Both the position numbers and the translations under genes were made by a program. Under the pieces are notes generated by a model. The model saw nothing but the letters and a program-made list of their open reading frames with translations. It had not been told where the DNA came from and searched no databases. Below, piece by piece: positions 38,028 to 63,561 of a stretch of 63,561 nucleotides of DNA; the stretch's first letter is position 1; each line of letters starts with the position of its first letter. The stretch is taken from IMG/VR virus record IMGVR_UViG_3300044801_000216, positions 1 to 63,561 of that record, one strand, 5' to 3'. This DNA comes from a virus. Lineage: Duplodnaviria; Caudoviricetes.

Positions 38028-38036
38028 GTGCGGTGC

Positions 38037-47548: not shown

Positions 47549-48916
47549 ATGGGCTATGCGTTCATTACCTTCCCTGCGGCCCGAGCCGCTTTGGCCGCGC
47601 GGTTGCAAGACACTGGGCTGGTTTACTGGAACCAGCCCGGCGAGCTGGACGCCTGCCTGATCGAATCCTTGAGATTTCATCAGGCGCTCACCGGGGCCTA
47701 CAAGCAGAAGATCGCGTTTCAGACTCAACTCGATATTTGCTTCTACGATCTCCCGCTGCTGACGGGCGTCGCCAACGGCGCGGCGGTGGCTTACACGGCG
47801 ACCGACGTAGAGGTGGCGAACAACGTACTCGCCGCGTTGCTTGAACCCCCGTTGGCCGCCGTGTGGTCCGGAACGGGGCAGTTCTCTATCGCACAACTAC
47901 AGGTTGCACTTCAGAATCGGTTGAACCGCTTCATTGGCGACACCGGCTGTACGGTGACCCGTCAGATTGTGGCTTGTCCGCCTCCGCCGGCAGAGGTGAC
48001 CTCGCTGCCGGATAGCACGCTCGACGTAAGGCGTGTCGCATGGCGACCGTTGCCGTTGCCTTACAACCGTATTACCAATCCTTATGGCCCCATACCTCCT
48101 TATTATCCGGCTTACCCGCTGGGCCGGATGGACGAATGGGCGGAACAAGCCTATGTTCCCGGCGCCGCGCAGGACCCGATGCAGCCGTTCGGATACTCCA
48201 CCTACGGCGTCCCCCCGGTGTCGATCCGGACGATCCCGCCGCCGATTGACGAAGGCGCGATCGACAGCCTGCTCGTAATGAGCGGTCCCACGGTGAATCT
48301 CGACCCGCTCAATCCGGTGGTGTTAGGCCTACCCGACAATCTCTCTCCGGCTCTCAAGTGGGGCGTGCTGGCCGAGATGCTGGCGAGCGACGGACCATCG
48401 AGAGATTACGCGCGCGCGGCTTATTGCGAACAACGCTACCAGGAATTTGTTCAATTGGCCGCGCTGATGCCGATGGCGCTTCTGGCGGACATCGGCAACG
48501 CCGGATGCGGCATCGGATCTGTAATCGACCTGGACGCTTTCCAGCCGGATTGGCAGCGCACCACCGGACCACCCTCGTTCGTAGGCATGTGCGGGCGCAA
48601 TATGGCCTGCATCGGACAGACGCCGGACGGCACATACGGCGTCGGCCTGTGGGTGTCCGCCAATGCATCAGTGGACACCACCGGGTTCTTGCAAATCGGC
48701 CGCGATCAAATCGCCCCGGTGCTCGATTACGCACAACACATCGCCTGTTTCAAGATGGGCGGCGCGGAGTTCGATCAGACCGCCGGGCTGTATCAAAATC
48801 TGATCGCCGCCGCCAAAGTTCAGAACGCCCGTTTGAACGCGGTGGCTTTCTATCGCGGACAGCTCGAACAACCGGCCCAGAAGTCCGAGTTGCAAGTGAA
48901 CCGATTGACGGTCTGA
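47549..48916 (+). CDS. Putative adaptor/tail-tube protein
   Basis: RL.D....W...EL; ALKWGVLAEML..DG. Confidence 0.6.
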   Translation: MGYAFITFPAARAALAARLQDTGLVYWNQPGELDACLIESLRFHQALTGAYKQKIAFQTQLDICFYDLPLLTGVANGAAVAYTATDVEVANNVLAALLEPPLAAVWSGTGQFSIAQLQVALQNRLNRFIGDTGCTVTRQIVACPPPPAEVTSLPDSTLDVRRVAWRPLPLPYNRITNPYGPIPPYYPAYPLGRMDEWAEQAYVPGAAQDPMQPFGYSTYGVPPVSIRTIPPPIDEGAIDSLLVMSGPTVNLDPLNPVVLGLPDNLSPALKWGVLAEMLASDGPSRDYARAAYCEQRYQEFVQLAALMPMALLADIGNAGCGIGSVIDLDAFQPDWQRTTGPPSFVGMCGRNMACIGQTPDGTYGVGLWVSANASVDTTGFLQIGRDQIAPVLDYAQHIACFKMGGAEFDQTAGLYQNLIAAAKVQNARLNAVAFYRGQLEQPAQKSELQVNRLTV

Positions 48917-51900: not shown

Positions 51901-52859
51901 ACTGGGTTGTCTTACCGCCCGTTAAAGACATGGGCGACAGCCGCGCGGTGAAGCAATTTGGCGACCTGTGGTTCTCTTACGCCGGATCTCCCTCGATGCA
52001 GGTATTGTGGGACAACCTGCTTGTAACGGGCCCGGCGCCAACAATCGCGGCGGCTGCCGCACGCACTCAAGCGATTCTGGATCTGTTCGCGTCACCGGAC
52101 ACGAACGATACGCCGTTGATTCACTACAATTTGACCGCGTTGCTGACCGGCACCGGACCTGTTTGGCTTTACGAGTGGCAACCTTCGTTCATCCCGCTGC
52201 CGGAGTCCACGACCTCGCGCGTGACCGCATGGGGCGGTGGAGACACGTTGCACTACAAGTTCGTGCAGGGCATACGGATTCACGCGAACACGCAGGGCCG
52301 GACGAAGCAATTACAAGTCCAATACGACGGCTACCAGGTGGGTCCCACAATTGCGGTGAACCACGACGGCGAGCAAACCCTGCCGTATTCGTTCGCCGTT
52401 CCTTTCAAGGCGCACATGATGCGTTTGGTCCCATTGGACGACGTGCCTTGGGAACTCTGGGAAGACAGCCAGTGGGTGTACGAACCCGAGCCGGAACCGG
52501 CTAACTACTGGATCTCGCAGCCGACCTCGCTTGGGCAGTCCGGGTACGTTCACGCACGCGAAAGCTGGATTGCGTTCGCTGGAGCGCAGGGTGGCACTGT
52601 AAGCGCCGTTGTGGACGGAGGGCCGGCTACGCTGATCGCCAGTTTGCCGGCGGCGTCCACGCCGGTCAAGCAATACTTTGTATGTCCCCCGCTGAAGGGC
52701 CGGTACTGGCAGTTGACCGCGTCGGGAACAGGGTTGCAATTGTACGAGAAGGACATCGAATTCCTGGTCAAGTCCTGGGGCAGCGCCGGACCCTACCAGA
52801 GAGTGAAGCCGTTTGGCGATCTTAGTGGCGGCGGCGGCGCGTCGGGAGCGCGGATCTGA
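48918..52859 (+). CDS. Putative tail nozzle/stabilisation protein, 1313 aa
   Basis: Beta-propeller-like blades (MYFSN..NPD, YVFT..SLY, FYWGPDGVY); position. Confidence 0.65.
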   Translation: MASYQRDSNKFAYSGMDIRHPPDLMPAGRCPLLFNLQPDLQSGALALRPAISLLATVGAGVPVHSVVRLNDSVPGANASSRFVGAGANLYSPAGLLDTGYSGNPLALVPYRPAQSPESWLYVYDSLRQRRCKTDNAPIQQIGIAAPTQEPAVASVLPLYDLLDNAALAASWTAIDLSGGTAGAATQVNRVPQPGAGMSLLTSLYDSGVTGMGLFAPTLYVYGPQEFAWMSEGSMVTLGGETVTIEQVVPGTYSTTVSSIAYDSGATGLCTIVPAVPLPGLVRNALICLNTTSTPPNGTYARVLSVTAGPDGSYSFRCSTGAATILSGQTIVGIPCFRAWTAANHVANAPVTGKSINFTFTPTVTNGSMSAIVNATPVTGNISYAGARPLQNEDYMHLSLAFDHPEWVTEVHILLDVDAATNDFTQNYYYYVMRQGDFQASNVGGSTTLQDQFNALSNAIANQLGSVEEPAAGSGAPSYPVPEELQTSPPLTAQLILGSLGWTEVMFKLSDLTRVGSDQSKTLANVAKIGIQVFTSGGVVNLYFGGWWAGGGYGPDCNFNSGGNQAPPIQWRYRYRNSLTGARSTVSPETRNGEILRRQAISLTVPNSADTQVDTVDFERRGGTNPDWHYVASVLQGGSTTTFEDHVTEAAAQISDPLEVACYQPWPVTDMPRTGTATVVGTSVVWLSGDKFNLRWLRGAEIVIGGNTYSLFAPPTSATVIQLAENVPPPGGVLAFSIPEATIEGQPLYGCWLDEANNRICGVGDPLNPGLMYFSNNDNPDGASDSGYLEITSPSEPLLNGFYAEGSNYVFTSSSLYRVESTPGAANPYAAYRLSGIEGLAGAWAFDVRRKMLFYWGPDGVYAYGFGAAAENLTATDLYPLFPHAGQAGQPGFPGVPVNVVGQTIYPPNYALPNLLRVGYAENFVYATYQNSNGTIEALVYSILSKGWRKDSYLPGATLFVLEKGVQNPVLMVGGADGNLYQVDSTATADTGGPIDWVVLPPVKDMGDSRAVKQFGDLWFSYAGSPSMQVLWDNLLVTGPAPTIAAAAARTQAILDLFASPDTNDTPLIHYNLTALLTGTGPVWLYEWQPSFIPLPESTTSRVTAWGGGDTLHYKFVQGIRIHANTQGRTKQLQVQYDGYQVGPTIAVNHDGEQTLPYSFAVPFKAHMMRLVPLDDVPWELWEDSQWVYEPEPEPANYWISQPTSLGQSGYVHARESWIAFAGAQGGTVSAVVDGGPATLIASLPAASTPVKQYFVCPPLKGRYWQLTASGTGLQLYEKDIEFLVKSWGSAGPYQRVKPFGDLSGGGGASGARI

Positions 52860-53284
52860 TGGCCAAGTCCAAACGTCCGCCGGTAGCGATCAACCCGTCG
52901 ATACCGCTCGAAATCCAGCGCGAACTGCGCAAAGTAGCGTCGTTCGCCTTCGACGCGCAGGACAGATCCGACGAAGCGCTCGAAGGTCTGAAGGGCAAAG
53001 TCGGAAAGAACGCGCAAGACCTGATGGAAGTCAGTTCGTTCGTTTCCAATCAGGTGCAGGCCGGTGGGAAATATCCGATCAAATTGACTTCCCTGGTGGG
53101 ATCGGTACCGTCGTCCACGATCGCGGACGAAGGCAAGATTCTTACGGCCGGCGGGGTAAGACAGCCGACATGGCAGGCGGCCAATACTACGGGTATCACC
53201 GCAACAATCTCTTACAGAAAGTCGGATGGAGTCACCAACGGAACCCTGAATTTCACCAATGGGCTTTTGACCGGTTCCAGCTAG
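52859..53284 (+). CDS. Small tail-associated protein
   Basis: Coiled-coil N-terminus and C-terminal TLNFTNGLLT. Confidence 0.6.
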   Translation: MAKSKRPPVAINPSIPLEIQRELRKVASFAFDAQDRSDEALEGLKGKVGKNAQDLMEVSSFVSNQVQAGGKYPIKLTSLVGSVPSSTIADEGKILTAGGVRQPTWQAANTTGITATISYRKSDGVTNGTLNFTNGLLTGSS

Positions 53285-53312: not shown

Positions 53313-55757
53313 ATGAAACGATGGATCGCGCTTCTGACGTTCTCGGCTGTGTGTGCCGCTCCGGCGCACGCGATCGCCACGGCGCAGGGCTGGTGCGAAC
53401 TGGGGAATCAAACCGTCGCGGTGCAGGGTTACATCAGCAGCGCCGATACGCCGGCGCAGCGGTCCTACCCAGGGTGTACCGTGACTGTGTATGTCACCGG
53501 ATCTTCGGGCACGCTGGCCACGCTCTACGCCGACAACAACGGTACGGGCTTGGCGAACCCGTTCACGGCGGACAGTTATGGCCGCTGGTTCTTTTACGCC
53601 TCGGGCGGCTACTACGACGTGTCGATCTCCGACGGAGGAATGCCCACACCATATACTTTTGGCGCAATAGACGCGGTGGATACGTGCCTGGTCGGCAAGG
53701 TGCTGTCGAAGGTGCTGGTGCAGGTAGCCGACGTGAACGTACCCAACGCACAGGTGATGGGCGCGCTGGGAACGGGGATCGTCAAAAACACGGCCGGCTC
53801 GGGAGTACAGTCGATCGCGGTCGGAGCCGATCTGCCGCCGATGATAGGGGATTCGGGTTCCGGTGGCACACGGGGCGCGGTGCCGGCGCCACCCGCGGGA
53901 AGCGCCGCGGGCAACGAGTTTCTATCCGCGTCGGGCACTTGGGGTCCTATACCGATTTTGATAGGCGATTCGGGCTCGGGTGGGACCGCCGGGGAAGCTC
54001 CGGCGCCGCCGGCCGGGTCCGCCGTGGCTGGAAAGTTCTTGAGCGCGGACGGAACCTGGGCCGTTCCGAGCGGAGGCGGTGGCGGCACATGTTCCAATTG
54101 CGTCACTTTGGACACGGTGCAGACCATAGTGGCGGCGAAGACGTTCACCGCGGGGATTGTGATGTCCGGTTCGGATGTGGAGTTCGACAACGGGCATCAG
54201 GTTCGGTTCAAGGATACGTCGGGCAGTTATCAGACCGCTTTGACGTGGGACGCATCGAACAATGTCGATGTAGGTCCTGTTAGCGGGAGCGGGGGAAACA
54301 CTTATTTGTGGGCGGGCGGATACGCCGTCGCGGGCGCGACTGTGACCGCCTTTTTACCCAACGGCGATTTCACCAAGAATTTGGGAGACGGGACGCACCG
54401 TTGGCTCTCTCTGTCGGTGGGCACCGTCGATGTTTATGGCAGCGGGGCTCCTCCTAACCTGGAATTACTCAACCCCACGAGTGGCCAGTACGTGGACATC
54501 ACTCTGCCCGCCACGGTGACTACTTCGTACACGCTGACGTTGCCTCCCGCTCCCGCTTCGGCCGGCAATTGCCTTGGAACCACGGGCGCCGGCGCTACAT
54601 TGTACTGGGTGGCTTGCAGCGGCGGTACGGGAAGTCTTCCGGCGCTCGACTCTACCTCTATCGTCGAAGGCTCCTCCGATAACACGAAGCAGATGAAGTT
54701 CAGCGTCGCGGGACTTACGACCGGAACCACGCGCACGCTGACGGTGCCGGACGCCAACATCACCCTGGCCGGACTCGAAAATACACAGACGTTCACGGGG
54801 CAGAAGACGTTCTCCACCGCGAACGTGATTCTGGCCGGGTCCATAGAAGTTCAACCGGCTACGGACTTCGGTTCCCTACTCGGAGACGCCACGCACCGTT
54901 TTGGGGAACTGTTCGCGGGGCACGTCGGTTTGTACAGCGGAAGTTATTACGTGGAATTGAGTACCGCCGCGAGTCCGAGCGCGTCTTATAATCTGACGTT
55001 TCCTCCCGCCGCCGCTACGGGCGCCGGTTGTCTGGGCACTGCCGGAGCGGGTTCCACACTCTCATGGGTGACTTGTTCGGGCGGCGGCGGCCTGCCCGTG
55101 GTCGATTCCACATCCATCGTCGAAGGGTCTTCGGATTCGACCAAGCAGATGCGGTTCAGCGTAGCCGGTCTGACTACCGGCAACACGCGGGTGATGACCG
55201 TACCGGACTCGAATATGACTCTGGCGGGACTGGAGAACGCACAGACGTTTACGGGGGCGAAAACATTTAGCAATTCGGACGTGGTTCTGTCTGGGGTTAA
55301 TTTGGATCTCGACAACAACACATCGATTCGTTTCAGGGACACGATTGCGGTCTATCGGACAACGTTGACGTTGGACAGCAGCGGCAACGTGGACGTAGGA
55401 GCGATCACCGGAAGTGGAAACGCTTACCTGTGGGCGGGCGGATACGCCGTCGCGGGCGCGACTGTGACCGCCTTTTTACCCAACGGCGATTTCACCAAGA
55501 ATTTGGGAGACGGGACGCACCGTTGGCTGAGTTTGTCCACCGGGAACATAGACATCTATGGCAGCGGGGCTCCTCCTAACCTGGACTTGCTGAACCCTAC
55601 GAGTGGCCAGTACGTGGACATCACTCTGCCCGCCACGGTGACTACTTCGTATACGCTGACGTTACCGGCGGGTCCGGCTCCCACTGGCGCCCAATACTGT
55701 CTCGGAATCGCCAGCGGAGGCGGCGGTACGCTGACCTGGGTGCAATGCACTCCGTAA
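53313..55757 (+). CDS. Tail fibre/spike-like repeat protein with signal peptide, 814 aa
   Basis: MKRWIALLTFSAVCAAPAHA; LANPFTAD..G...FYA anchor-like domain; Q.FTG.KTF and VPAPPAG...FL..DGTW fibre repeats. Confidence 0.75.
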   Translation: MKRWIALLTFSAVCAAPAHAIATAQGWCELGNQTVAVQGYISSADTPAQRSYPGCTVTVYVTGSSGTLATLYADNNGTGLANPFTADSYGRWFFYASGGYYDVSISDGGMPTPYTFGAIDAVDTCLVGKVLSKVLVQVADVNVPNAQVMGALGTGIVKNTAGSGVQSIAVGADLPPMIGDSGSGGTRGAVPAPPAGSAAGNEFLSASGTWGPIPILIGDSGSGGTAGEAPAPPAGSAVAGKFLSADGTWAVPSGGGGGTCSNCVTLDTVQTIVAAKTFTAGIVMSGSDVEFDNGHQVRFKDTSGSYQTALTWDASNNVDVGPVSGSGGNTYLWAGGYAVAGATVTAFLPNGDFTKNLGDGTHRWLSLSVGTVDVYGSGAPPNLELLNPTSGQYVDITLPATVTTSYTLTLPPAPASAGNCLGTTGAGATLYWVACSGGTGSLPALDSTSIVEGSSDNTKQMKFSVAGLTTGTTRTLTVPDANITLAGLENTQTFTGQKTFSTANVILAGSIEVQPATDFGSLLGDATHRFGELFAGHVGLYSGSYYVELSTAASPSASYNLTFPPAAATGAGCLGTAGAGSTLSWVTCSGGGGLPVVDSTSIVEGSSDSTKQMRFSVAGLTTGNTRVMTVPDSNMTLAGLENAQTFTGAKTFSNSDVVLSGVNLDLDNNTSIRFRDTIAVYRTTLTLDSSGNVDVGAITGSGNAYLWAGGYAVAGATVTAFLPNGDFTKNLGDGTHRWLSLSTGNIDIYGSGAPPNLDLLNPTSGQYVDITLPATVTTSYTLTLPAGPAPTGAQYCLGIASGGGGTLTWVQCTP

Positions 55758-55779
55758 ACTTACAATAAGGAGAACGCCA

Positions 55780-56103
55780 ATGCGCGCGATCGCAACTCTG
55801 ATTTTTACGGCCCTTGTTGTCTTGGCCGCGGACACGAAACCCACGGTTACGTCCCCGGCCGGTCCCCTGCCGATCCCCAAGGACCGCCAGGAAGACATCT
55901 CCCGCGCCATGCTGCACGTGCAGCAAACGCAGATGGCCGAGGTTCAGACCCGTACCGCCGCCGAGTCCGCCGCCGAGCACTACCGCATTATGCTGGCGGC
56001 GCTTCAGAAAGAGTTCAACGCCGAAGGCTGCGATCTGGACCTCGACAAGACGTGGCGTAACTGCCCGGCGGAGAAAACTCCGGCGGTTCGGCCCGCGAAG
56101 TGA
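55780..56103 (+). CDS. Small exported coiled-coil protein
   Basis: MRAIATLIFTALVVLAA; SD TAAGGAG. Confidence 0.75.
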   Translation: MRAIATLIFTALVVLAADTKPTVTSPAGPLPIPKDRQEDISRAMLHVQQTQMAEVQTRTAAESAAEHYRIMLAALQKEFNAEGCDLDLDKTWRNCPAEKTPAVRPAK

Positions 56104-56109
56104 GAATCT

Positions 56110-59100
56110 ATGCGTAGAATCGTTCTGCTGTTCCCGTTATTGATCGCGTCCGCCTGGGCTCAGTGCGCGGGTGGCGCCGGAGTAATCACCAGCCCATCCA
56201 CGTGCGGAGGATGCTCCGGTGGCGGCGGCGGCGGCGGAAGCGTCTCGTGGGGCGCCATCGTGGGCACGCTGGGCAACCAGCTCGATCTGGCGGCAGCGTT
56301 GAACGCGAAGCAGAATACAATCGCGTCCTACGCAACCATCAGCGGTTTGCTGGGGTATCCGAGCGCGTTCAACCCGGTGAACACGGGCGACTGGGCGGGG
56401 ACCTGGCAGACGCACCAGCCGTCGTACTTCCAACCCGCGTTGAGCGCCTACTCGACCATCAGCGGGCTGAGCGGGTACCCGTCCACTTTCCCGCCGATCA
56501 ATACGGGCGACTGGGCGGGGACGTGGCAGGGCCAATCGCCGGGCGCGTGGGGGAGGTATTTCTCCGCGACGCGGACCAGCGGCGCGGTGCTCACGCTGGG
56601 GGCGGACTGCACAAGTGCCAATCCCTGCCCGGTGAGGGTCGGCAATACTACCTACCGGCTGACCTCGAGCGCTACGGTGACTCTCAGCGCGGGCGCCGGC
56701 AGCGGCACGGCCCAGGTCTACGTGGTGAGCGGCGGCGCGCTCACGGTTGGGCACAACCTGACGGGCGCGGATGTGACTTGCGGGGGCTGCACGGCGGTTT
56801 CCAGCGTCACCAATCCGCCCGTGCCATCGACGCTGCTGTGGACCTGGACGGCGACTTCGAGCACATGGGACACCTCCGGGGGGACCGACTTTCGCGCGGC
56901 CTACTCGACACAGAACGTACAGGCGGGAAGCGCGGGCGGAGTGGCGGTGAGTACTTCGGGGGATGCGACTACGGTGGAGCAGGACCCGGCTACGATCTAT
57001 GGATACGCCCCCGCGAGGACCGGGACTATCGGAAGCTTGCCGGGAACGTGCGGAGCCGGGGAGCAGTATTTCGCCACCGATGCGCCGCCCGGAGCCAATC
57101 TGTATTTCTGCACGGCGACCGATACCTGGACTTCAATGGGCGCGATTATCGACTCGTTCACGACAACTTCTCTTACCCTGTATCCGCTAGTGAACCCGAC
57201 AAACACGTCTTATGCCAATCCAGGTGGATCGGGAGACCGAAGATCCTCTATAGTCGTAGCGGTTTCGTCCCCAAACTCCCCCGTGGGAGGAGATCTAACG
57301 GAACTGGTCGATGGGATTACGAGCGGCGGGGGCGTGTACTTTCCAATCGCCACGGACATTTCCGGCCGATGGGTTAGCTTTGACTTCGGCGTACCACGTC
57401 TGATATCCGAGGTTACTTTGTACCTCTGGGGAAGTAACGATATGCAGAACTGGAAATGGCAAGCTTCCGCGGATAGTTTTGCTTGGACCGATATTAGCGC
57501 GATCTTCGATATTCCAGGAAACACCAGTCCACTTACTGTAAGTTGTCCCGGATCGACATCGTACCGTTATTGGCGAATGATCGAGACGAGCGGAGTGGTA
57601 AGCGGAGGAGCGGTTCGGGAGGTCACGTTCAAAATCTCCACCGACCCCCTCCTGGATACAACGTTGACGAACTACGGAAAGTCCCTGACCTATGGGATAG
57701 AATCGGCGCAGGCGTTCCAGGCCATCGGGGTATACAAAGGAACTTGCGACATCTCCGCCAGAGGCCAAATCTACGTGGACAAGGGAGCTTCGGGAGTCTC
57801 CGACCAGAGTTACGAGTGTATAAAGGACGCGAACGACGCTTATGTATGGTTGCCGCTTACGCCCTCGGTGCGGTCGGATTTCTTCTCCTGGAACGTGGTA
57901 CCGGGAACGGCTTGGGCATCGGCGGGAGCGCAAACCGCGACTTTGGCGCCAGTGCCCGCCGGAGTCAACGGCGCGGATTCTTCGCACAATCTGTACATCT
58001 CGGACGGGTCTAACTCGGAAGTGGTAACGATCACGGGTGGAACGGCCGTCAGTGGGGCGGCTTCCGGCACGATAACGTTCACTACGGCGAACGCACACAA
58101 TAACACCGCCTGGACTCTCGGTTCCGCCACGGCGGGAATAAAAGAGGCTTCCGAGTATCTGGTTTCCGGGGGGACGATACACGTTCCCGCCGGCAATTCC
58201 ACGATGCGCGCCGCGGCGGCGATTACCAAGTCCGCCATCAAAATCGTGGGAGACGGCGGGTGGTCCGCGTCATACGACGACACATCTCATGGGTCCGTGC
58301 TGGTCAACCACTCGAACACAGCCGATGTTATCCAGATCGGAGACGCCTCGAATCATACTTACGGCTTCCAACTGGAAAGTGTTGGGTTCACGACGGACAC
58401 CTACGCGGTCTCCGGAGCGGCGACCGATGGCGGGTTAATTAAGTTGACGATAGCTCCGCACGAGTTCTCTACCGGCGACAAGGTGTATGTGCGCAACGTC
58501 GGCGGGGTGACGGCGGCAAACGGATACTGGACGGCAACTGTCGTGGACGGCACGCACATCGACCTGCAAGGCTCGACGTTCTCCGGCGCTTACTCCTCCG
58601 GCGGAGCTGTCTATCGGTCTAAAACCGCCGGGTCCGCGATCCATCTCTATAGCTTCTCGAACGCCTCGGTACGCGATGTTACTATCCGCCATCATTACCA
58701 GCCGGTCTTGGTTGGGTACGGCGACAACTTCCATTTCGACAACTATGTCATCAAAGGCACGACGCCAAACGTTATATCCGCCGGGAGCGCGGGCATCGCT
58801 ATCAACACCGCCGGAAACGAAGTCTTCGTCGGAAAAGGCGTCATCGACGTGGACGACGGCGTTTGGACGGCCAACGGGGGTCCGTGCGATTTGTCTTACG
58901 GGTTCTGTCCCAACCAGGAGCCATACGCGGGCATTTTGATGTTACAAGGTTTTGGCATATATATCGACGGCGCCAGCGTGATTCACGGCGGCCATGGTCT
59001 GCTTGCGACCCCCACAGCGGGAACGGCGGTAACGTGGGTTTATATCGTAAACTCCCTGTTCGATACGTCGTCGGGTACGAACTTGATTCAACCGAACGGT

Positions 59101-59781
59101 AGCGGCGCTAACGTGTACGGCGTGGTTCTCGCAAACGATTGGTTCACTAACAACAACGACACGGGGTTGACAATCTCCCAGTCTTCCTCCGGTGTGGTGG
59201 ACGGGGTACAAATCTCCAACGCCCGTGTGTTCGACAATAGGCAGAACGGAATTTATTTAGCGGCGGGGCGCAACCTCCAAATCGGGTCCGAGTCCCAAAT
59301 CTGCGGTAACGGCCTGGGTTCTTCCAACACTTACGACGGCTTGGTAGTCGGCGCCGGCGCCTCTCACTGGTCGTTTGGGAACTCCACATCGGGAACTTGC
59401 TCTGGGTTTGGAACGAACCAGCGTTACGGCGTCAACATCGGAGCCAGCGGGCCGTACTTCAGAGTTGTGGGCAACGATTTATCGGGGAACGCCACGGGTG
59501 GATTTGCGAATACAAGTGGGGCCGCAAACGGGATCGTATCCAACAATTTGGGATACAACCCGGTGGGGGCCGGTTCAATCAGCGTGACCGGAAGCCCGTT
59601 CACCTACACGGCCGGCCCCAGTCCAGAGGTAGTCTACATCAACGGCGGCACGGTTTCCGGGGTGGTGCGGGGATCTTCGACGATCTGCGCGGCGAGTCCA
59701 TGCCAAGCGACACTGCCTCCGAACGGCGCGGTGGTTGTCACCTACAGCTCGGCTCCGACGATGGTCAAGGACGTACAGTAA
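56110..59781 (+). CDS. Multidomain tailspike/depolymerase-like protein with signal peptide, 1223 aa
   Basis: MRRIVLLFPLLIASAWA-Q; F5/8-like domain (WVSFDFG...YRYWRM); FCCH-like insert; parallel beta-helix. Confidence 0.78.
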   Translation: MRRIVLLFPLLIASAWAQCAGGAGVITSPSTCGGCSGGGGGGGSVSWGAIVGTLGNQLDLAAALNAKQNTIASYATISGLLGYPSAFNPVNTGDWAGTWQTHQPSYFQPALSAYSTISGLSGYPSTFPPINTGDWAGTWQGQSPGAWGRYFSATRTSGAVLTLGADCTSANPCPVRVGNTTYRLTSSATVTLSAGAGSGTAQVYVVSGGALTVGHNLTGADVTCGGCTAVSSVTNPPVPSTLLWTWTATSSTWDTSGGTDFRAAYSTQNVQAGSAGGVAVSTSGDATTVEQDPATIYGYAPARTGTIGSLPGTCGAGEQYFATDAPPGANLYFCTATDTWTSMGAIIDSFTTTSLTLYPLVNPTNTSYANPGGSGDRRSSIVVAVSSPNSPVGGDLTELVDGITSGGGVYFPIATDISGRWVSFDFGVPRLISEVTLYLWGSNDMQNWKWQASADSFAWTDISAIFDIPGNTSPLTVSCPGSTSYRYWRMIETSGVVSGGAVREVTFKISTDPLLDTTLTNYGKSLTYGIESAQAFQAIGVYKGTCDISARGQIYVDKGASGVSDQSYECIKDANDAYVWLPLTPSVRSDFFSWNVVPGTAWASAGAQTATLAPVPAGVNGADSSHNLYISDGSNSEVVTITGGTAVSGAASGTITFTTANAHNNTAWTLGSATAGIKEASEYLVSGGTIHVPAGNSTMRAAAAITKSAIKIVGDGGWSASYDDTSHGSVLVNHSNTADVIQIGDASNHTYGFQLESVGFTTDTYAVSGAATDGGLIKLTIAPHEFSTGDKVYVRNVGGVTAANGYWTATVVDGTHIDLQGSTFSGAYSSGGAVYRSKTAGSAIHLYSFSNASVRDVTIRHHYQPVLVGYGDNFHFDNYVIKGTTPNVISAGSAGIAINTAGNEVFVGKGVIDVDDGVWTANGGPCDLSYGFCPNQEPYAGILMLQGFGIYIDGASVIHGGHGLLATPTAGTAVTWVYIVNSLFDTSSGTNLIQPNGSGANVYGVVLANDWFTNNNDTGLTISQSSSGVVDGVQISNARVFDNRQNGIYLAAGRNLQIGSESQICGNGLGSSNTYDGLVVGAGASHWSFGNSTSGTCSGFGTNQRYGVNIGASGPYFRVVGNDLSGNATGGFANTSGAANGIVSNNLGYNPVGAGSISVTGSPFTYTAGPSPEVVYINGGTVSGVVRGSSTICAASPCQATLPPNGAVVVTYSSAPTMVKDVQ

Positions 59782-59794
59782 TAGGAGATAACTT

Positions 59795-60952
59795 ATGCGA
59801 AGAATCTTTGCACTGTGCGCACTGTGCGCGTTGTGGACGCTGGCTATTATAAGCGCGGCGGCGCAGATCACGCCTCCGCCAGGCGGCGGCGGCAGTCCGG
59901 TTGACCTCACCGCGATTCACCCCGCCAGCGCCCTAACCGGCAGTGGCGCGCTGCTGAAGGACTCCGCAGCGGGGACGGTGGGGCTTCAGACCGGCACGGG
60001 AGTTGCGCGGCTCGCTTCCGGCGTAGCAACCGCAGCCGAACTCTCGGGCGACGCAACCACCAGCGGGAGTAATGCCGTTACCGTCACGGCTCTCCACGAT
60101 TCGATCTGTCACGGTGCCGGTGGTGGAGCGGTCTTGCACAGCGATTCTCCATATGCGATTCCAGCGGGGTGCAGCTACATGGACTGCGACGCCACGGCGG
60201 GAGCCGTTGTGCTGACTCTTCCCGCTACGTCGGGGAGCGGAAGAGAGATCACAGCCAAAAAGATAGACTCCTCGACGAGCGCCTGCACCCCAACCGTTAC
60301 CGGCGGCGATGCGGTAGACGGTGTTTCGTCTTTCAGTTTGACCTCGCAATGGGCTTCCAGTAAGGTAGTTGACCGGGCAACGGGATACTGGGACAGGTCG
60401 CATGTGAATCAGTTGGCGGGAGACGTATCCGGGGCCAGCACAGCCAACACTGTGACTAAGATAAATGGAACGTCTCTCGCGGGGCTGGCAACCGGATTCC
60501 TGTTCAACACGATTACTACGGGAGTTCCCACGGTTCCCACCGCAACAGCCAATACGGTGCTCGCTGGTCCAACTTCCGGCGCTGCGGCGGTTCCGACTAC
60601 CCGCGCTTTGGTGGCTGCGGATATTCCGGCAGTTCCTATCGTTTCCGGCACCGGGGGCGCGCTTACCGGGCCGTCCGAGTTTTACGTTTGCACAACCACA
60701 TGTACGGTGACTCCTCCGGTCCCCGTGGCAGGTTATCAGTTCTGCATTCGCAACGCTCCCGGAGTTTCCACGGTTATCACTCTCGCTGGAGTCGCACTGG
60801 TGTACTACGAGAAAACCGACTTATCGGGGTATGGGACTGTTGCGACGGCGGCAACGTCGAGCGGGATAACCGGAGACAAGATTTGTATTGTGGGGCTGGA
60901 TGCAACCCATTACTTGACGTACTCATATATGGGCACGTGGACGGTGAACTAA
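59795..60952 (+). CDS. Fibre-like protein with signal peptide, 385 aa
   Basis: MRRIFALCALCALWTLAIISAAA-Q; LSGD/LAGDV repeats; NTVLAGPTSG...P..RALV.ADIP. Confidence 0.75.
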   Translation: MRRIFALCALCALWTLAIISAAAQITPPPGGGGSPVDLTAIHPASALTGSGALLKDSAAGTVGLQTGTGVARLASGVATAAELSGDATTSGSNAVTVTALHDSICHGAGGGAVLHSDSPYAIPAGCSYMDCDATAGAVVLTLPATSGSGREITAKKIDSSTSACTPTVTGGDAVDGVSSFSLTSQWASSKVVDRATGYWDRSHVNQLAGDVSGASTANTVTKINGTSLAGLATGFLFNTITTGVPTVPTATANTVLAGPTSGAAAVPTTRALVAADIPAVPIVSGTGGALTGPSEFYVCTTTCTVTPPVPVAGYQFCIRNAPGVSTVITLAGVALVYYEKTDLSGYGTVATAATSSGITGDKICIVGLDATHYLTYSYMGTWTVN

Positions 60953-62160
60953 TGAAACGGCTTTTCGGTTCGCTCGTTTTGTTTGCCGCTATCGGGATGG
61001 GGCAGATTCTCGATCCCATACTTTCCGGTGACGGAGGTCCGTTTACGCTGGTCGCAACCACGGTCGGGTCTTCGCAGACGGTGACAATAAACAGGCTGAC
61101 ACTCAATGGCAACGCTCTGCTCAATTGGGGCGATGGCGGCACCGCTACCATTACCAGCGGCAACACCGGAGCATGGACCCATGTGTATGCGGCGGCTGGG
61201 GCGCACGCGATCACGCTTCCGAACGCTCGGATGATCGTGGGATTGGACTTGCGCGACGCACAACTAGGCGGGCTGAATACCTCGCAGTTGAGAACAAGCT
61301 CGCTGAACTACTTCTATGCGACTGCCATAACCGGGAGCACGGTTAAGAGCGCGGACATGAGCGCGTGGAGGCCAACGTACTGGGGACTGTACTCCATGCC
61401 CGCCGGAACCTACTCGATCTCCAGCGCGGATATGTCGGCGTGGCGGCCTACGACTTGGTCCCTAGCCTACATGCCCACTGGAACCTACAGCATCTCCAGC
61501 GCGGATATGTCGGCGTGGCGGCCTACGACTTGGTACCTGTTCTCCATGCCCACGGGGACGTACTCGATTTCCAGCGCGGACATGAGCGCGTGGAGGCCAA
61601 CGAACTGGGACCTGTTCTCCATGCCCGCCGGAACCTACTCGATTTCCAGCGCGGACATGAGCGCGTGGAGGCCAACGAACTGGTACCTGTTCTCCATGCC
61701 CACGGGGACGTACTCGATTTCCAGCGCGGACATGAGCGCGTGGAGGCTAACGAACTGGGAACTGTTCTCCATGCCCACGGGGACGTACTCGATTTCCAGC
61801 GCGGACATGAGCGCGTGGACGACGGTGCAAAATCTGTATTGTTATTCTAACGTGGGTGGTGTACTAACCATCTCGGCGTATACGGATTTTACCGGACTCG
61901 TTGCGCTGCACAATCTGCAACTGCAAAACAACGCCTTAGCCCAAGCGTCGGTGGATGCCGTGCTTAAAGGACTCTGGACCGCCCGCGCCAGCTTCACGTA
62001 TGCGACCCCATCGCTGACGATCAATGGGACGAACGCAGCGCCTTCTGGAATCTATCAATCGAACTGCCCAACCCCCGCGACAGGTAAAGAATGGGCATAC
62101 GATCTGGTCCATGAAACGTGTGCGGGCGGTGGACACGTCTGGACTGTAGCGACTAACTAA
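60952..62160 (+). CDS. Exported LRR-like repeat protein, 402 aa
   Basis: TAATG-coupled start; MKRLFGSLVLFAAIGMG-Q; NWGDG (PKD-like) N-cap; 25-aa repeats; L.NN.L....VD.VL C-cap. Confidence 0.78.
   Translation: MKRLFGSLVLFAAIGMGQILDPILSGDGGPFTLVATTVGSSQTVTINRLTLNGNALLNWGDGGTATITSGNTGAWTHVYAAAGAHAITLPNARMIVGLDLRDAQLGGLNTSQLRTSSLNYFYATAITGSTVKSADMSAWRPTYWGLYSMPAGTYSISSADMSAWRPTTWSLAYMPTGTYSISSADMSAWRPTTWYLFSMPTGTYSISSADMSAWRPTNWDLFSMPAGTYSISSADMSAWRPTNWYLFSMPTGTYSISSADMSAWRLTNWELFSMPTGTYSISSADMSAWTTVQNLYCYSNVGGVLTISAYTDFTGLVALHNLQLQNNALAQASVDAVLKGLWTARASFTYATPSLTINGTNAAPSGIYQSNCPTPATGKEWAYDLVHETCAGGGHVWTVATN
61348..61818 (+). repeat. Six full plus one partial 75-bp tandem repeats
   Basis: Units start at 61348, 61423, 61498, 61573, 61648, 61723 and 61798. 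Confidence 0.95.
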
Positions 62161-62174
62161 AAGGAGAAACCTCA

Positions 62175-62561
62175 ATGAAGCGAACGATTGTGATTTTAGC
62201 TCTGGCTATTTTGCCTGGATTGCTCTCGGCGCAAACAACCGTAGCGACGGTGACGATTACCGTGCCAACTGCGGCGGTTCCGATTGTCAACGCCTGGATC
62301 GCAACGCAGTGTGCCGTCTATGCAACCGATGGCATAACCTGTGTGACCCCTCAGTACGCCTCGGCCAAGGACCTGGCTCAACAGATTGTCCAGGCGGCGA
62401 TCAATGCCAAACTGATGGGCATTTTGCAGTGGGCCGTCACAACTACTGATCCGAGCATCCCGGCGGCCGTGAAAACTCAGATAACAAACCGGCTCAATGC
62501 ACAGACGGCCATCGCGAACGCGCAAACGGCGGCGGCAACGGCTACCGTTACGGTGAATTGA
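62175..62561 (+). CDS. Exported protein, 128 aa
   Basis: MKRTIVILALAILPGLLSA-Q; SD AAAGGAG. Confidence 0.78.
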   Translation: MKRTIVILALAILPGLLSAQTTVATVTITVPTAAVPIVNAWIATQCAVYATDGITCVTPQYASAKDLAQQIVQAAINAKLMGILQWAVTTTDPSIPAAVKTQITNRLNAQTAIANAQTAAATATVTVN

Positions 62562-62563
62562 GA

Positions 62564-62902
62564 ATGAGACATACGCCCTGGCTTTTGGCCGCTCTGATAT
62601 TCGCGCTGGCGATGGCTCCTCTGCTGCACGCCGGAGAGAACCACCGCCATCTTTGGCTTGCGTCGGTTGCCACGCTCGTCGCAGCGGAGGGAATGGACGT
62701 AGCCAGTTCGCGCGGTGGAGTGGAAGCGAATCCGATCATGAAGCACGGCGGAGTGGCGATCAAAGTATCCGCAGTAGGAGCGGTAGTGTTGATCGAGTGG
62801 CTGGCGACAAGACACCACCCAAGCAAAGTGCCAGCTATTGTGAACTTCGCTGGAGCGGGCGCACTAACCGGCGTGGCTGTGAGAAACTGGAGGATCAAAT
62901 GA
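62564..62902 (+). CDS. Exported/membrane protein, 112 aa
   Basis: Signal-like N-terminus; D..SS.GG.EANP motif followed by TM-like helices. Confidence 0.7.
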   Translation: MRHTPWLLAALIFALAMAPLLHAGENHRHLWLASVATLVAAEGMDVASSRGGVEANPIMKHGGVAIKVSAVGAVVLIEWLATRHHPSKVPAIVNFAGAGALTGVAVRNWRIK

Positions 62903-63000
62903 AACGCATTCTGCTGTTCGTTGCGATCTGCGGGGCGGCGATGGGGCCTCGGAGCGATTCTCGGTTCGCCGCAAACTCAAGAAAGGACGTATACTACTGA
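62899..63000 (+). CDS. 33-aa signal-peptide-like ORF, possibly the frameshifted 5' end of the next gene
   Basis: SD GGAGG; ATGA overlap; MKRILLFVAICGAAMG. Confidence 0.45.
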   Translation: MKRILLFVAICGAAMGPRSDSRFAANSRKDVYY

Positions 63001-63001
63001 C

Positions 63002-63379
63002 ATGGGCGCATATGCGACAGGCTTTCCATTGTTTCCCGCCGGCTACGTGGCCGGCACGATCACGATCTCAGCCGGACAGGCGAACTCGCCGCAATCGCTT
63101 CTGGCGCTCATTCAAGCGCAACTGGACGCCAACTGCGCCGGGTCTTACCAGGAGGTCACCTTGCAGGCGGACGCCAGCGGCGCATTGTACGTGGGCCGCC
63201 CGAACATCGTCGGACCTCTGTCCACCACCAACTACGGCTACATCCTGGCCGCGGCCACCACTGGGGCAGCAGGGGCTTCACGCACCTACAGGTCCAGCTT
63301 TCCGGGCAACAACTCTCCGGTCGGCGATCTGATGGTGCTGATGAGCGGCGCCGGAACGTTCCATGTCGAGGTAGCATAA
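63002..63379 (+). CDS. Small beta-rich protein, 125 aa
   Basis: LQAD....LYVG......NYGY.L. Confidence 0.7.
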   Translation: MGAYATGFPLFPAGYVAGTITISAGQANSPQSLLALIQAQLDANCAGSYQEVTLQADASGALYVGRPNIVGPLSTTNYGYILAAATTGAAGASRTYRSSFPGNNSPVGDLMVLMSGAGTFHVEVA

Positions 63380-63398: not shown

Positions 63399-63561
63399 GT
63401 GGCTTCCAACACACCCGCCACGCCCGGCCAAGGCCTCTCGCTGGAACCGATTCAGGGCAACAGCCTGACCGAGTTCATTCGCTCGATCGAGGGACTGACG
63501 GGGAAGCAGGGACAGCAGATCTTAGGCTCCGGATTGGCGCAAGAGCAGTCGGGTGTGAACT
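63399..63561 (+). CDS. 5' part of the gene continuing to 579 across the circular junction
   Basis: SD GGAGG at 63386, GTG at 63399, in frame with position 1. Confidence 0.75.
   Translation, partial: MASNTPATPGQGLSLEPIQGNSLTEFIRSIEGLTGKQGQQILGSGLAQEQSGVN
63435..63561. repeat. Terminal direct repeat, copy 2
   Basis: Identical to 1-127. Confidence 0.95.

What the first reader, a model, noticed from the sequence alone, without database searches (positions are those of the whole stretch)
53313..63000. Whole tail-fibre/tailspike module appears Sec-exported: eight consecutive genes with signal peptides
Seen: the genes starting at 53313, 55780, 56110, 59795, 60952, 62175, 62564 and 62899 all begin with M-(K/R), a hydrophobic core and a small-residue cleavage-like site. 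Four have Gln at +1 and most carry paired Cys. The flanking nozzle-like and ejection-like genes have no such N-terminus. These proteins contain fibre repeats, a tailspike-anchor-like N-domain (LANPFTAD..G...FY) and a beta-helix, and I see no other receptor-binding candidates in the genome. Known: tailed-phage virion proteins normally fold and assemble in the cytoplasm without signal peptides. Inference: either the adsorption apparatus matures in the periplasm (with disulfides) and docks onto particles at lysis or exit, or this is a phage-encoded cell-surface appendage built from tail-fibre parts.
Basis: partly seen in the sequence, partly recalled or inferred. Interest (0 to 1): 0.9.

Follow-up and report, generated by a model that had tools for sequence, protein, structure and literature searches.

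The report
Phage tail fibres carrying export signals
A complete soil phage genome puts ordinary bacterial secretion signals on its fibre and tailspike-type proteins, as do dozens of relatives including a cultured phage of Acidobacteriota, so these host-recognition parts probably fold outside the cytoplasm where the rest of the particle is built.

Summary
The window is a complete 63.4-kb short-tailed phage genome. All eight genes from 53313 to 63000 start with a basic residue, a hydrophobic core and a small-residue site. None of 33 other genes does. The starts are firm. Six look like cleavable Sec leaders. 62564 is a multi-pass membrane protein, and 62899 is a 33-residue ORF of doubtful standing.

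The 814-residue fibre carries a beta-sandwich domain found at the front of many phage tailspikes. This domain has thousands of relatives. Of 205 examined, 175 have a leader and 26 do not, and the leaderless ones mostly lack its cysteine pair. Related phages keep the leader-bearing gene inside the tail operon, and so does cultured Tunturiibacter phage Tunturi_1.

In cultured Cellulophaga phages, proteins with similar leaders are annotated as virion proteins from MS/MS.

Export is well supported, though only indirectly. Docking onto particles at lysis is my leading reading (about 0.4) and is unproven. I found no paper describing this. This scan has flagged the same theme on other genomes.

The parts
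47549..48916 (+). Tail adaptor (455 aa), no leader. About twice the length of T7 gp11-type adaptors.
   Evidence: AF2 model on 19 homologues, pLDDT 83.7. Foldseek PDB matches: podophage adaptors A4 (E 1.8e-6), GP4, Pa223, KHP30, VP1 and T7 gp11. Not flagged by the leader rule.
48918..52859 (+). Nozzle-like tail protein (1313 aa), no leader.
   Evidence: Follows the adaptor with a 1-base gap. Homologous to Tunturi_1 gp31, 29% identity over 1149 residues, and to the genes after the adaptor in relatives. The name rests on position; its fold was not tested. No PDB sequence match.
52859..53284 (+). Leaderless 141-aa protein. Likely a stub of a leaderless tail fibre, or an adaptor for fibres.
   Evidence: No leader and no Cys. 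The homologue in L001/L014 is also 141 aa. In L016 the first ~35 residues are alike by eye, but the protein runs on to about 440 residues (from the internal Met of the 537-aa frame) and has His-x-His motifs. No family or PDB match.
53313..55757 (+). SP814: leader (about residues 1-20), N-terminal beta-sandwich anchor-type domain (about 24-126) with Cys28/Cys55, then a fibre with internal repeats.
   Evidence: leader and start. (domain, fold and relatives). (PHROG fibre-repeat families at 443-568). (internal repeats). (Cys pairs).
55780..56103 (+). SP107: small protein with a leader or N-terminal anchor and two Cys (84, 95). Role unknown: possibly a periplasmic helper or spanin-like protein.
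   Evidence: No family match. Small leader-bearing genes follow the large ones in relatives too.
56110..59781 (+). SP1223: leader (about 1-17), Gln at +1, fibre repeats (GDWAGTWQ), a galactose-binding-like domain (about 400-494) and a C-terminal beta-helix-like part.
   Evidence: Pfam F5/8 type C, just under the curated cut-off. Atlas feature search of residues 560-1223: Beta_helix/Gp49 pectate-lyase-like, score 0.93 (a lead only). Repeat homologues in 9 viral loci all have leaders.
59795..60952 (+). SP385: leader (about 1-23), Gln at +1, fibre-like protein with 8 Cys.
   Evidence: The mature start QITPPPGGGGS recurs directly after an unrelated leader in L006-L009.
60952..62160 (+). SP402: leader (about 1-17), Gln at +1, seven 25-residue repeats.
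   Evidence: repeat spacing 25 at residues 133-283. No family match above noise.
62175..62561 (+). SP128: small exported protein, Gln at +1, two Cys (46, 56).
   Evidence: No family match.
62564..62902 (+). TM112: polytopic membrane protein, not a secreted protein. Possibly lysis-related.
   Evidence: Two 19-residue segments over KD 1.6 (3-21, 62-80), plus further hydrophobic stretches by eye. No family match.
62899..63000 (+). 33-codon ORF with a hydrophobic N-terminus. Uncertain whether it is a real gene.
   Evidence: GGAGG upstream, and its start overlaps the stop of the gene before it. Flagged by the rule. It is too short to judge, and there is no canonical lipobox by eye.
63002..63379 (+). 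Leaderless 125-aa gene that closes the block. The next gene runs across the terminal repeat into the ejection-like genes.
   Evidence: No Pfam match.

Best explanation
Six of the eight genes encode proteins with ordinary cleavable Sec (signal peptidase I type) leaders. Four are large tail-fibre or tailspike-type proteins (814, 1223, 385 and 402 aa). Two are small companions (107 and 128 aa).

Proposed mechanism, all inferred:
1. The proteins are exported unfolded through the host inner membrane.
2. The leader is cut off. Four of them then begin with Gln.
3. They fold in the periplasm, with disulfides.

The head, adaptor, nozzle-like protein, ejection-like proteins and the 141-aa stub have no leader, so they stay in the cytoplasm.

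The 814-aa protein keeps the same N-terminal anchor-type domain that leaderless tailspikes of sister phages use. I therefore think the exported proteins are still the phage's adsorption apparatus. They would join the finished particle only when lysis opens the inner membrane and the two compartments mix. Tailspikes can be added to finished P22 heads in vitro (recalled knowledge).

My odds: export about 0.85; docking on the virion, given export, about 0.5. A share of the exported enzymes may also act freely on the host's own envelope polysaccharide.
For: **Leaders are real features of the genes.**
- The rule flags 8 of 8 in the block and 0 of 33 elsewhere.
- It flags 0 of 116 core structural proteins in 35 related loci, against 45 of 79 large non-core ORFs.
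- The starts are fixed by short upstream frames, ribosome sites and gene coupling.

**Leaders are conserved as a property, not as a sequence.**
- L001: 74% identical, leader kept with substitutions.
- L016: nozzle 59% identical, with different leader-bearing downstream proteins.
- 9 of 9 viral loci sharing the fibre repeat of the 1223-aa protein have leaders; these are 6 distinct sequences.
- Of 36 viral loci with the N-domain, 33 are flagged and the other 3 show a hydrophobic stretch by eye.

**The N-domain family.**
- 3185 representatives at E<=1e-3, and most of the best 150 align from residue ~1.
- Of 205 members, 175 have a leader and 155 of those have both Cys. Of 26 leaderless members, 4 have both (Fisher p 4e-14).
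- The AXA-like site lies a median of 7 residues before Cys1, as Met1 does in leaderless members. Position -1 is Ala in 114 of 174.

**Anchor role.**
- Foldseek against viral models: 24 matches at E<=1e-3, all at the front of larger proteins. They include pectate-lyase-type phage proteins, a Pantoea phage tail spike and an EPS depolymerase.
- PDB: Pan3 tail complex (Z 8.7, 23% identity), Pam1 tail machine, and the P22 and Sf6 tailspike head-binding domains (Z 6.7-7.0).
- The Bryobacterales-MAG contig L019 has a leaderless copy after its nozzle gene.

**Tail-operon position.** In relatives the gene lies between the p358 homologue and the adaptor, between adaptor and nozzle (L024, L026, L031, L032), directly after the adaptor in L017 (no nozzle gene in that locus), or after the nozzle.

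**Cultured relative.** Tunturi_1 has 25-30% identity in TerL, portal, MCP, adaptor and nozzle. Its gp12 is 42% identical over the leader plus N-domain. Its gp13, gp14, gp16 and gp17 also have leaders.

**Precedent for a virion location.** Cellulophaga phage phi18:3 gp085-087 and phiSM gp08 are annotated 'structural protein, experimental MS/MS proteomics' and have leader-like N-termini with Gln after the likely site.

**The family is nearly confined to phage-type DNA.**
- 36 confirmed loci in viral contigs.
- 3 confirmed loci in one genome each of 185,579 species, found with motif patterns.
- 1 strong match in 201 genomes of one order.
Against: - No trained signal-peptide predictor and no experiment was available. 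The leader rule is my own.
- Nothing here shows these proteins on a particle. Tailed-phage virions are otherwise assembled in the cytoplasm (established knowledge; the expectation is stated in PMC6199706, passage read).
- The leader-Cys link is not independent of descent. On a tree, only 4 independent pairs lie on supported branches. Cys went the same way in about 2.6, the other way in 0 and did not differ in 1.4, with sign-test p 0.25.
- 20 of 175 leader-bearing members lack the full Cys pair.
- The N-domain fold is a common beta-sandwich. PDB Z-scores of 7-9 are shared with pilins and carboxypeptidase domains.
- The motif patterns used to find the 36 viral loci contained the Cys residues, which biases the sample towards leader-bearing forms.
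- Leaderless fibre candidates exist in relatives: about 440 aa in L016 and 661 aa in L024. The particle may not need the exported proteins.
- Only SP814 has the anchor-type domain. How the other three large proteins would attach is unknown.
- MS detection in Cellulophaga phages could reflect co-purification. Those proteins are not shown to be related to the ones here.
Confidence: 0.42

Rival explanations
1. The proteins are exported but never join the particle. They would be free periplasmic or released enzymes and binders. They would strip or mask the infected cell's own envelope polysaccharide or receptors, easing release of progeny, stopping progeny from sticking to debris, or excluding other phages. 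The particle would adsorb with the leaderless stub and the large nozzle-like protein.
For: - Export separates them from the cytoplasmic particle.
- Leaderless fibre-type proteins stand beside them in relatives (L016 about 440 aa; L024 661 aa).
- C-terminal parts of family members carry glycan-cutting families: PF12708, PF13229, PF00295, PF04616.
- Exported proteins in or beside fibre regions are known. Lambda Lom is described in PMC12309495 (passage read).
- Pantoea WceF is an exported tailspike-like enzyme (PMC7949094; title and abstract start from the search listing only).
- Matrishin et al. read leader-bearing Porphyromonas phage genes as modifiers of the host surface (PMC10367356, passages read).
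Against: - The N-domain is shared, at up to 67% identity, with leaderless tailspike-type proteins, and it resembles particle-binding domains.
- The gene sits between adaptor and nozzle in several relatives.
- The block is about 15% of this genome, and about 20% in lytic Tunturi_1.
- The window phage has only a 141-aa leaderless candidate.
- Leader-bearing proteins are annotated from MS/MS as virion proteins in Cellulophaga phages.
Confidence: 0.33
2. The hydrophobic N-termini do not lead to export of the pool that matters. The proteins would stay in the cytoplasm and assemble there. This could happen because the phage blocks Sec late in infection, or because the leader is removed by another protease or serves as an assembly or membrane-tethering element.
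For: - This fits the textbook cytoplasmic assembly route.
- Matrishin et al. suggest that 'signal peptides' predicted on capsid proteins are cut by prohead proteases.
- No predictor or experiment was run here.
Against: - The leaders have the full n/h/c layout with Ala at -1 and -3.
- Their sequence is free to vary while the property is kept.
- Leaderless relatives start where the predicted cut falls.
- The Cys pair follows the leader in raw counts.
- No core particle protein has such an N-terminus (0 of 116).
Confidence: 0.1
3. The block is a cell-surface appendage, or a lysogenic-conversion cassette built from fibre parts. It would be displayed on the host and would not be part of phage spread.
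For:
- Leaders and repeat-rich bodies resemble adhesins.
- A repeat protein (60952) is present.
Against: - No lipobox, beta-barrel, sortase-type or other anchor signal was seen.
- The family is rare in bacterial genomes.
- The same layout occurs in the cultured phage Tunturi_1, isolated on its host.
Confidence: 0.05

Closest known systems
Podophage tailspikes and fibres with an N-terminal particle-binding domain (P22 gp9, Sf6 gp14, fibre parts in the Pan3 and Pam1 tail complexes; pectate-lyase-type tailspikes of Pantoea phages)
   Same: N-terminal beta-sandwich followed by fibre repeats or a beta-helix enzyme. The gene lies beside the adaptor and nozzle genes. Fold matches.
   Different: Those proteins have no leader and assemble in the cytoplasm (established knowledge). 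Here a Sec-type leader precedes the domain, and the domain carries a Cys pair.
Tunturiibacter phage Tunturi_1 (PP887698.1), gp12-gp17
   Same: Cultured short-tailed phage of Acidobacteriota, 63 kb, with the same core genes at 25-30% identity. gp12 has leader plus N-domain, 42% identical to residues 1-112 here. gp13, gp14, gp16 and gp17 also have leaders.
   Different: The block lies between the p358 homologue and the lysis genes, not after the nozzle. The paper that describes the phage does not contain 'signal peptide' or 'mass spectrometry' (term search of PMC11924767).
Leader-bearing 'structural proteins' of cultured Cellulophaga phages (phi18:3 gp085-087, KC821620.1; phiSM gp08, KC821616.1)
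   Same: Consecutive large proteins with leader-like N-termini and Gln after the likely cut. They are annotated as structural from experimental MS/MS.
   Different: Bacteroidota hosts and other phage groups. No sequence relation to the window's proteins was found or sought beyond the searches named. The original paper was not held, so I saw only the GenBank notes.
Leader-bearing genes of Porphyromonas phages (Matrishin et al. 2023, PMC10367356)
   Same: Phage genes with Sec leaders that obey the Gln-at-+1 rule (passages read).
   Different: These are genes of unknown function, read as modifiers of the host membrane. The passages shown by my term search for 'signal peptide' do not name tail fibres or tailspikes.
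Exported proteins encoded in or beside fibre regions (lambda Lom), and bacterial exported tailspike-like enzymes (Pantoea WceF)
   Same: A leader on a protein encoded in a fibre region (Lom; passage in PMC12309495), or a tailspike-like fold on an exported enzyme (WceF; PMC7949094, title and abstract start in a search listing only).
   Different: Lom is a small outer-membrane barrel with no fibre parts. WceF is a chromosomal bacterial gene. Neither has the tailspike anchor-type domain in a phage tail operon.

Membership tests
Cleavable Sec (signal peptidase I) signal peptide | Basic n-region with no acidic residue before the core | tested here: met
   8 of 8 genes.
Cleavable Sec (signal peptidase I) signal peptide | Uncharged hydrophobic core of about 7-16 residues, and a single hydrophobic segment in the protein | tested here: met
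   Met for six genes (53313, 55780, 56110, 59795, 60952, 62175): one segment each. The core of 59795 is about 20 residues. Not met for 62564 (several segments). 62899 is too short to judge.
Cleavable Sec (signal peptidase I) signal peptide | Small residues at -3 and -1 after the core | tested here: met
   AHA, LAA, AWA, AAA, GMG and LSA in the six genes. In the family, -1 is Ala in 114 of 174 and -3 is Ala in 93 of 174.
Cleavable Sec (signal peptidase I) signal peptide | Call by a trained predictor; cleavage and export shown by experiment | not testable with these tools
   No SignalP or DeepTMHMM was on hand, and there are no data on the proteins.
Twin-arginine (Tat) signal peptide | S/T-R-R-x-F-L-K-type motif, long n-region, weakly hydrophobic core | tested here: not met
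   By eye. Two leaders start MRR, but they are 17-23 residues long with strongly hydrophobic cores. The others start MKR or MRA. The motif is recalled, not from a tool.
Podophage tailspike or fibre with N-terminal particle-binding domain | N-terminal beta-sandwich domain of the tailspike-anchor type | tested here: met
   AF2 pLDDT 78.9. 24 viral-model matches at E<=1e-3 at the front of tailspike-type proteins. PDB matches to Pan3, Pam1, P22 and Sf6 at Z 6.7-8.7, among many generic sandwiches.
Podophage tailspike or fibre with N-terminal particle-binding domain | Gene in the tail operon beside adaptor and nozzle | tested here: met
   Adaptor identity shown by fold. Gene order in the window and in relatives.
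Podophage tailspike or fibre with N-terminal particle-binding domain | Leaderless protein that folds and assembles in the cytoplasm | tested here: not met
   A leader is present. Leaderless members of the same domain family exist: 26 of 205.
Podophage tailspike or fibre with N-terminal particle-binding domain | Present on the particle and binds the tail | not testable with these tools
   No proteomics or structure of this phage exists.
Right-handed beta-helix depolymerase (56110 product, C-terminal part) | Beta_helix / pectate-lyase-type repeats | tested here: inconclusive
   No Pfam match at E<=0.01 for that part. The atlas feature search gives Beta_helix/Gp49 pectate-lyase-like at 0.93 with 185-191 shared features (a lead only). 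The fold was not predicted.
Fibre-region outer-membrane or lipoprotein morons (lambda Lom/Bor, T5 Llp type) | Small outer-membrane barrel, or a lipoprotein with a lipobox | tested here: not met
   The proteins are 385-1223 aa with fibre parts. No lipobox Cys at +1 by eye. The family features are recalled.

The most novel reading that the evidence does not exclude
Two-compartment assembly of a tailed phage. The head, tail core and ejection proteins are built in the cytoplasm. The whole distal adsorption apparatus (fibres, tailspike enzyme and small helpers) is exported by Sec, cut, disulfide-bonded and perhaps capped with pyroglutamate in the periplasm. It docks onto particles only when lysis joins the compartments. 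This would be the normal route for a large clade of phages of Acidobacteriota. Together with the Cellulophaga cases, it may also be a recurrent solution in phages of other soil and water bacteria.
Probability: 0.4. Interest if true: 0.9.

Novelty: new variant of a known kind. Interest (0 to 1): 0.72.

Why it matters
Tailed-phage particles are taken to be assembled wholly in the cytoplasm. Annotation pipelines and authors use the lack of signal peptides as a mark of virion proteins (PMC6199706).

If the receptor-binding parts of a whole clade mature in the periplasm, three things change:
- when and where infectivity is acquired;
- how fibres can be disulfide-stabilised for life in soil;
- how such proteins should be expressed for study or use.

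The finding also affects host prediction and the annotation of soil viromes, where these genes would be taken for host or 'moron' genes.

A cultured relative on a cultured host (Tunturi_1) makes the question directly testable.

Tried and rejected
**Starts downstream of the hydrophobic segment.** Rejected. The next in-frame ATG lies far inside each gene, and the named starts have ribosome sites or are coupled to the gene before.

**Family and PDB sequence searches.**
- Pfam, PHROG and NCBIfam scans of the block gave almost nothing.
- PDB sequence searches of the 141-, 814-, 1223- and 1313-aa proteins and of the adaptor profile gave nothing usable.

**Complex prediction.** Three copies of the 141-aa protein with three copies of SP814 residues 21-135 gave no verdict (score 0.00 against a mark of 0.32). 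This counts neither for nor against binding.

**Homologues of SP814 residues 132-169.** L002-L004 match at residue 634 of one 1166-codon frame that is identical in all three loci, with no leader. They say nothing about the N-terminus.

**Cultured-phage search.** tblastn of the N-domain against 50,697 phage records found no match. The Tunturi relation came from the capsid protein and from a direct comparison.

**Endolysin.** None was recognised in the ORFs that I scanned. Tunturi_1 endolysin has no match in the window. The lysis genes of this phage are therefore not placed, and I did not scan every ORF.

**Tree test.** The phylogeny-aware test of leader against Cys pair was underpowered.

**Bacterial genomes.** The genome search in one order gave 1 strong and 8 weak partial matches in 201 genomes. 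The weak ones lie in ORFs of about 1180-1260 and 616-639 codons, which I did not study.

**Literature.**
- Searches and the passages read gave no description of tail fibres or tailspikes of tailed phages made with Sec leaders.
- The library lacks most subscription journals.
- Supplements were closed. Those of the Tunturi and Porphyromonas papers, and the Holmfeldt proteomics tables, may bear on this.

Full report
**What the window is.**
- The 63,561 bases are a virus record with a 127-base direct terminal repeat, that is, a complete genome of about 63.4 kb.
- It encodes a family A DNA polymerase, a large terminase, a scaffold protein and a major head protein (PHROG matches).
- A 737-aa protein is homologous to the portal of a cultured phage.
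- The 455-aa protein at 47549 folds confidently (pLDDT 83.7). It matches the tail adaptors of short-tailed phages: A4 at E 1.8e-6, then GP4, Pa223, KHP30, VP1 and T7 gp11.
- The 1313-aa gene that follows is nozzle-like by position and by homology to the gene after the adaptor in relatives. Its fold was not tested.
- This is a short-tailed phage of a lineage with little annotation.

**The observation.**
The rule needs a basic and no acidic residue before a 10-residue uncharged window of mean hydropathy 2.0 or more, followed by a -3/-1 small-residue site.
- The starts are not in doubt. Five of the frames open only 1 to 15 codons upstream. Four starts have AGGAG-type ribosome sites, one has GGAGG, and three abut or overlap the preceding stop. 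No plausible start lies just after the hydrophobic segment.
- Six products have one hydrophobic segment, at the N-terminus, and sites AHA, LAA, AWA, AAA, GMG and LSA. Four would begin with Gln after the cut.
- The 62564 product has several hydrophobic segments and is a membrane protein. 62899 is a 33-codon ORF that I cannot judge.
- The mature parts hold locally paired cysteines, among them one pair in each repeat unit of the 814-aa protein.
- The flanking adaptor, nozzle-like, 141-aa, 125-aa and ejection-like proteins have no such N-terminus.
- The 814-aa protein has long internal repeats and matches PHROG fibre-repeat families.
- The 1223-aa protein has a galactose-binding-like domain just under Pfam's cut-off. 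Its C-terminal part resembles beta-helix, pectate-lyase-type proteins in a feature search (0.93; a lead only).

**Are the leaders conserved?**
- A contig with a 74% identical fibre keeps the leader, with substitutions that keep it hydrophobic.
- A phage whose nozzle is 59% identical carries different downstream proteins, and these also begin with leaders. One has the same N-domain fused to another body.
- Nine viral loci share the fibre repeat of the 1223-aa protein. They are six distinct sequences, and all begin with leaders.
- Three further loci (L002-L004) match only residues 132-169 of the fibre, deep inside one leaderless frame that is identical in all three. They are uninformative.

**The N-terminal domain.**
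- Residues 1-152 of the 814-aa protein found 3185 cluster representatives at E<=1e-3 and 1402 at E<=1e-10 among 1.84 billion. Most of the best 150 align from about residue 1 of both proteins, so leader plus domain is the common layout.
- C-terminal bodies vary and include pectate-lyase, beta-helix and glycoside-hydrolase families. This is the pattern of swappable tailspike heads on a constant anchor.
- The AF2 model (pLDDT 78.9) is a beta-sandwich.
- Against predicted viral structures it gives 24 matches at E<=1e-3, all at the front of larger proteins. Among them are 'pectate lyase superfamily' phage proteins, a Pantoea phage tail spike and an EPS depolymerase.
- Against solved structures the best phage matches are chains of the Pan3 tail complex (Z 8.7, 23% identity), the Pam1 tail machine, and the head-binding domains of the P22 and Sf6 tailspikes (Z 6.7-7.0). 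These stand among many generic sandwiches of similar score.
- I read this as an anchor-type domain. The fold alone does not prove it.

**Leader-bearing and leaderless forms of one family.**
- A second search was seeded with a leaderless member. With its hits, 205 members were placed on a profile of the domain.
- 175 have a hydrophobic leader. 26 start 2-11 residues before the domain. 4 have the domain further inside the protein.
- Both conserved cysteines are present in 155 of 175 leader-bearing members and in 4 of 26 leaderless ones (Fisher p 4e-14). Those four may be truncated gene calls, since they start inside the basic stretch that follows the cut site in others.
- On a tree of the domain the leader state changes at least 16 times. 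Only four independent pairs lie on supported branches. Cys status went the same way in about 2.6, the opposite way in 0 and did not differ in 1.4 (p 0.25). The link is therefore suggestive, not proven.
- In leader-bearing members the last AXA-like site lies a median of 7 residues before the first Cys. Met1 of leaderless members lies at the same distance. Position -1 is Ala in 114 of 174 (the search window for the site bounds the range by construction).
- The leader thus behaves as a removable addition to a domain that also works without it.

**Genomic setting in relatives.**
- A motif scan of viral contigs gave 36 confirmed loci out of 65 stretches. 33 are flagged by the rule, and the other three show a hydrophobic stretch by eye. 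The motifs contained the cysteines, which favours leader-bearing forms.
- All loci belong to one broad group of phages that share homologues of the portal, head protein, a 358-aa tail-region protein, the adaptor and the nozzle-like protein.
- The leader-bearing gene lies between the 358-aa homologue and the adaptor in many. It lies between adaptor and nozzle in L024, L026, L031 and L032. In L017, which came from the genome scan, it follows the adaptor and no nozzle gene is in the locus. Elsewhere it lies after the nozzle.
- Six near-duplicate loci were dropped from the 41 mapped (the 36 plus L014-L017 and L019). In the 35 left, none of 116 core proteins is flagged. By contrast, 45 of 79 non-core ORFs of 400 residues or more are flagged, 21 of 183 of 150-399 residues, and 19 of 307 shorter ones. 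Many unflagged large ORFs are antisense artefacts, ejection-like proteins or leaders missed by the start choice.
- One relative, on a contig of a Bryobacterales MAG, has a leaderless copy of the domain after its nozzle gene and no flagged gene in 20 kb.
- The family is scarce in bacterial genomes. The genome scan gave 3 confirmed loci out of 73 stretches, in one genome for each of 185,579 species. Two of the three are phage-type contigs. One order gave 1 strong match in 201 genomes.

**A cultured relative.**
- The head protein matches Tunturiibacter phages Tunturi_1 and Tunturi_2. These are short-tailed phages isolated on Acidobacteriota from tundra soil (PMC11924767, passages read).
- Tunturi_1 shares TerL, portal, head protein, the 358-aa homologue, the adaptor (gp30) and the nozzle-like protein (gp31) at 25-30% identity. 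Its gp12 aligns with residues 1-112 of the 814-aa protein at 42% identity, leader included.
- gp12, gp13, gp14 ('tail spike protein'), gp16 and gp17 ('virion structural protein') all begin with leaders. Four have Gln after the likely cut.
- The paper does not contain 'signal peptide', 'tail spike', 'tail fiber', 'mass spectrometry' or 'structural protein'. The feature seems not to have been noted there, and those product names are not from proteomics.
- The host of the window phage is therefore probably an acidobacterium (inference).

**Are such proteins ever on particles?**
- Earlier notes of this scan named leader-bearing 'structural proteins' of Cellulophaga phages, and I checked this lead.
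- In GenBank, phi18:3 gp085, gp086 and gp087 and phiSM gp08 are 'structural protein; annotation based on experimental MS/MS proteomics analysis'.
- All four start with a basic residue, a hydrophobic core and a small-residue site followed by Gln.
- The neighbouring phiSM gp09 pectate lyase also has a leader but carries no MS note.
- I could not read the original paper.
- This is annotation-level evidence, from unrelated phages, that leader-bearing fibre-size proteins can be found in purified particles.

**How it most likely works.**
- Shown: the leaders are there, at firm starts. They are conserved as a property across a large phage group that includes a cultured member. They are restricted to the distal fibre-type genes.
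- Inferred: the six proteins go through Sec, are cut by signal peptidase I and fold with disulfides in the periplasm (about 0.85).
- Inferred further: they remain the adsorption apparatus and dock by the N-domain when lysis merges the compartments (about 0.5 given export).
- Recalled support: holin lesions are large enough for big complexes, and P22 tailspikes bind finished heads in vitro.
- Main rival: the exported proteins act freely on the host envelope and never join the particle. That reading must explain three things: why they keep the anchor-type domain shared with leaderless tailspikes, why the gene sits between adaptor and nozzle, and why this phage has only a 141-aa leaderless candidate.
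- Both could hold at once.
- How the three large proteins without the N-domain would attach is open.

**Comparison with what is known.**
- In form these are tailspike and fibre proteins. They fail one defining trait of that kind, leaderless cytoplasmic assembly.
- The nearest printed statement that I found is that Porphyromonas phages carry leader-bearing genes of unknown function that obey the Gln rule (PMC10367356; echoed in PMC10653852).
- Another paper uses the absence of signal peptides as a sign of phage origin for fibre-like proteins (PMC6199706).
- Searches found no account of tail fibres made with Sec leaders.
- This scan has noted the same theme on other genomes (329 notes in at least 291 genomes hold the search words). 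Later checks there put low odds on the bold reading.
- I set my own odds on what I tested here: the leaderless and leader-bearing pairs, the cultured relative and the MS-based annotations.

**Verdict.** Export is probable. Periplasmic maturation of virion parts is plausible and testable, but unproven. I rate it a new variant of a known kind, with interest 0.72.

Noticed in passing
window 56110, 59795, 60952, 62175; L056 (Tunturi_1) gp12, gp13, gp16, gp17: Gln follows the likely leader cut in 4 of 6 window leaders and in 4 leader-bearing Tunturi_1 proteins. [quoted passage not shown] A similar habit in phages of Acidobacteriota would be new.
   Followed up: partly
window 47549-48916: The adaptor is 455 aa, but its Foldseek matches to podophage adaptors span only about 200-260 alignment columns against chains of about 180-240 residues. 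Roughly half of the protein is an extra part, which could be a docking platform.
   Followed up: no
window 52859-53284; L016 about 3070-4387: The leaderless 141-aa protein shares its first ~35 residues by eye with a leaderless protein of about 440 residues in a relative. That protein ends in a part with His-x-His motifs, as in some fibre tips (motif recalled). The window copy looks like a stub of that fibre.
   Followed up: partly
window 60952-62160: Seven tandem 25-residue units (SADMSAW at residues 133-283, spacing exactly 25) in a leader-bearing protein. Another first-reader note on this window (e1-6241811) concerns their variable positions.
   Followed up: partly
window 62564-63000: A small polytopic membrane protein and a 33-codon hydrophobic ORF close the block. 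In Tunturi_1 the leader-bearing block is followed by small membrane proteins and the endolysin. No endolysin was recognised in the window among the ORFs that I scanned.
   Followed up: partly
window 63399-63561 and 100-579: One gene runs across the 127-base terminal repeat. The last ORF of the window continues as the first, with the same residues at both ends.
   Followed up: partly
L014 10001-14251; L015 10004-14557: The nozzle-like protein varies from 845 to 1520 aa among relatives. The longer forms hold repeated extra units near the C-terminus, by eye. These could themselves bind the host surface.
   Followed up: no
L062-L066 and three further places in genome handles: Weak partial matches of the N-domain profile (27-41 bits) fall in chromosomal ORFs of about 616-639 and 1177-1257 codons in 8 of 201 genomes. 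These may be host envelope proteins with a related sandwich domain. I did not examine them.
   Followed up: no
window 38028-38291; L060 972-1211: A KTSC-domain protein is encoded in the window (Pfam E 1.7e-15). One is also annotated in Cellulophaga phage phi18:3 (gp074).
   Followed up: no
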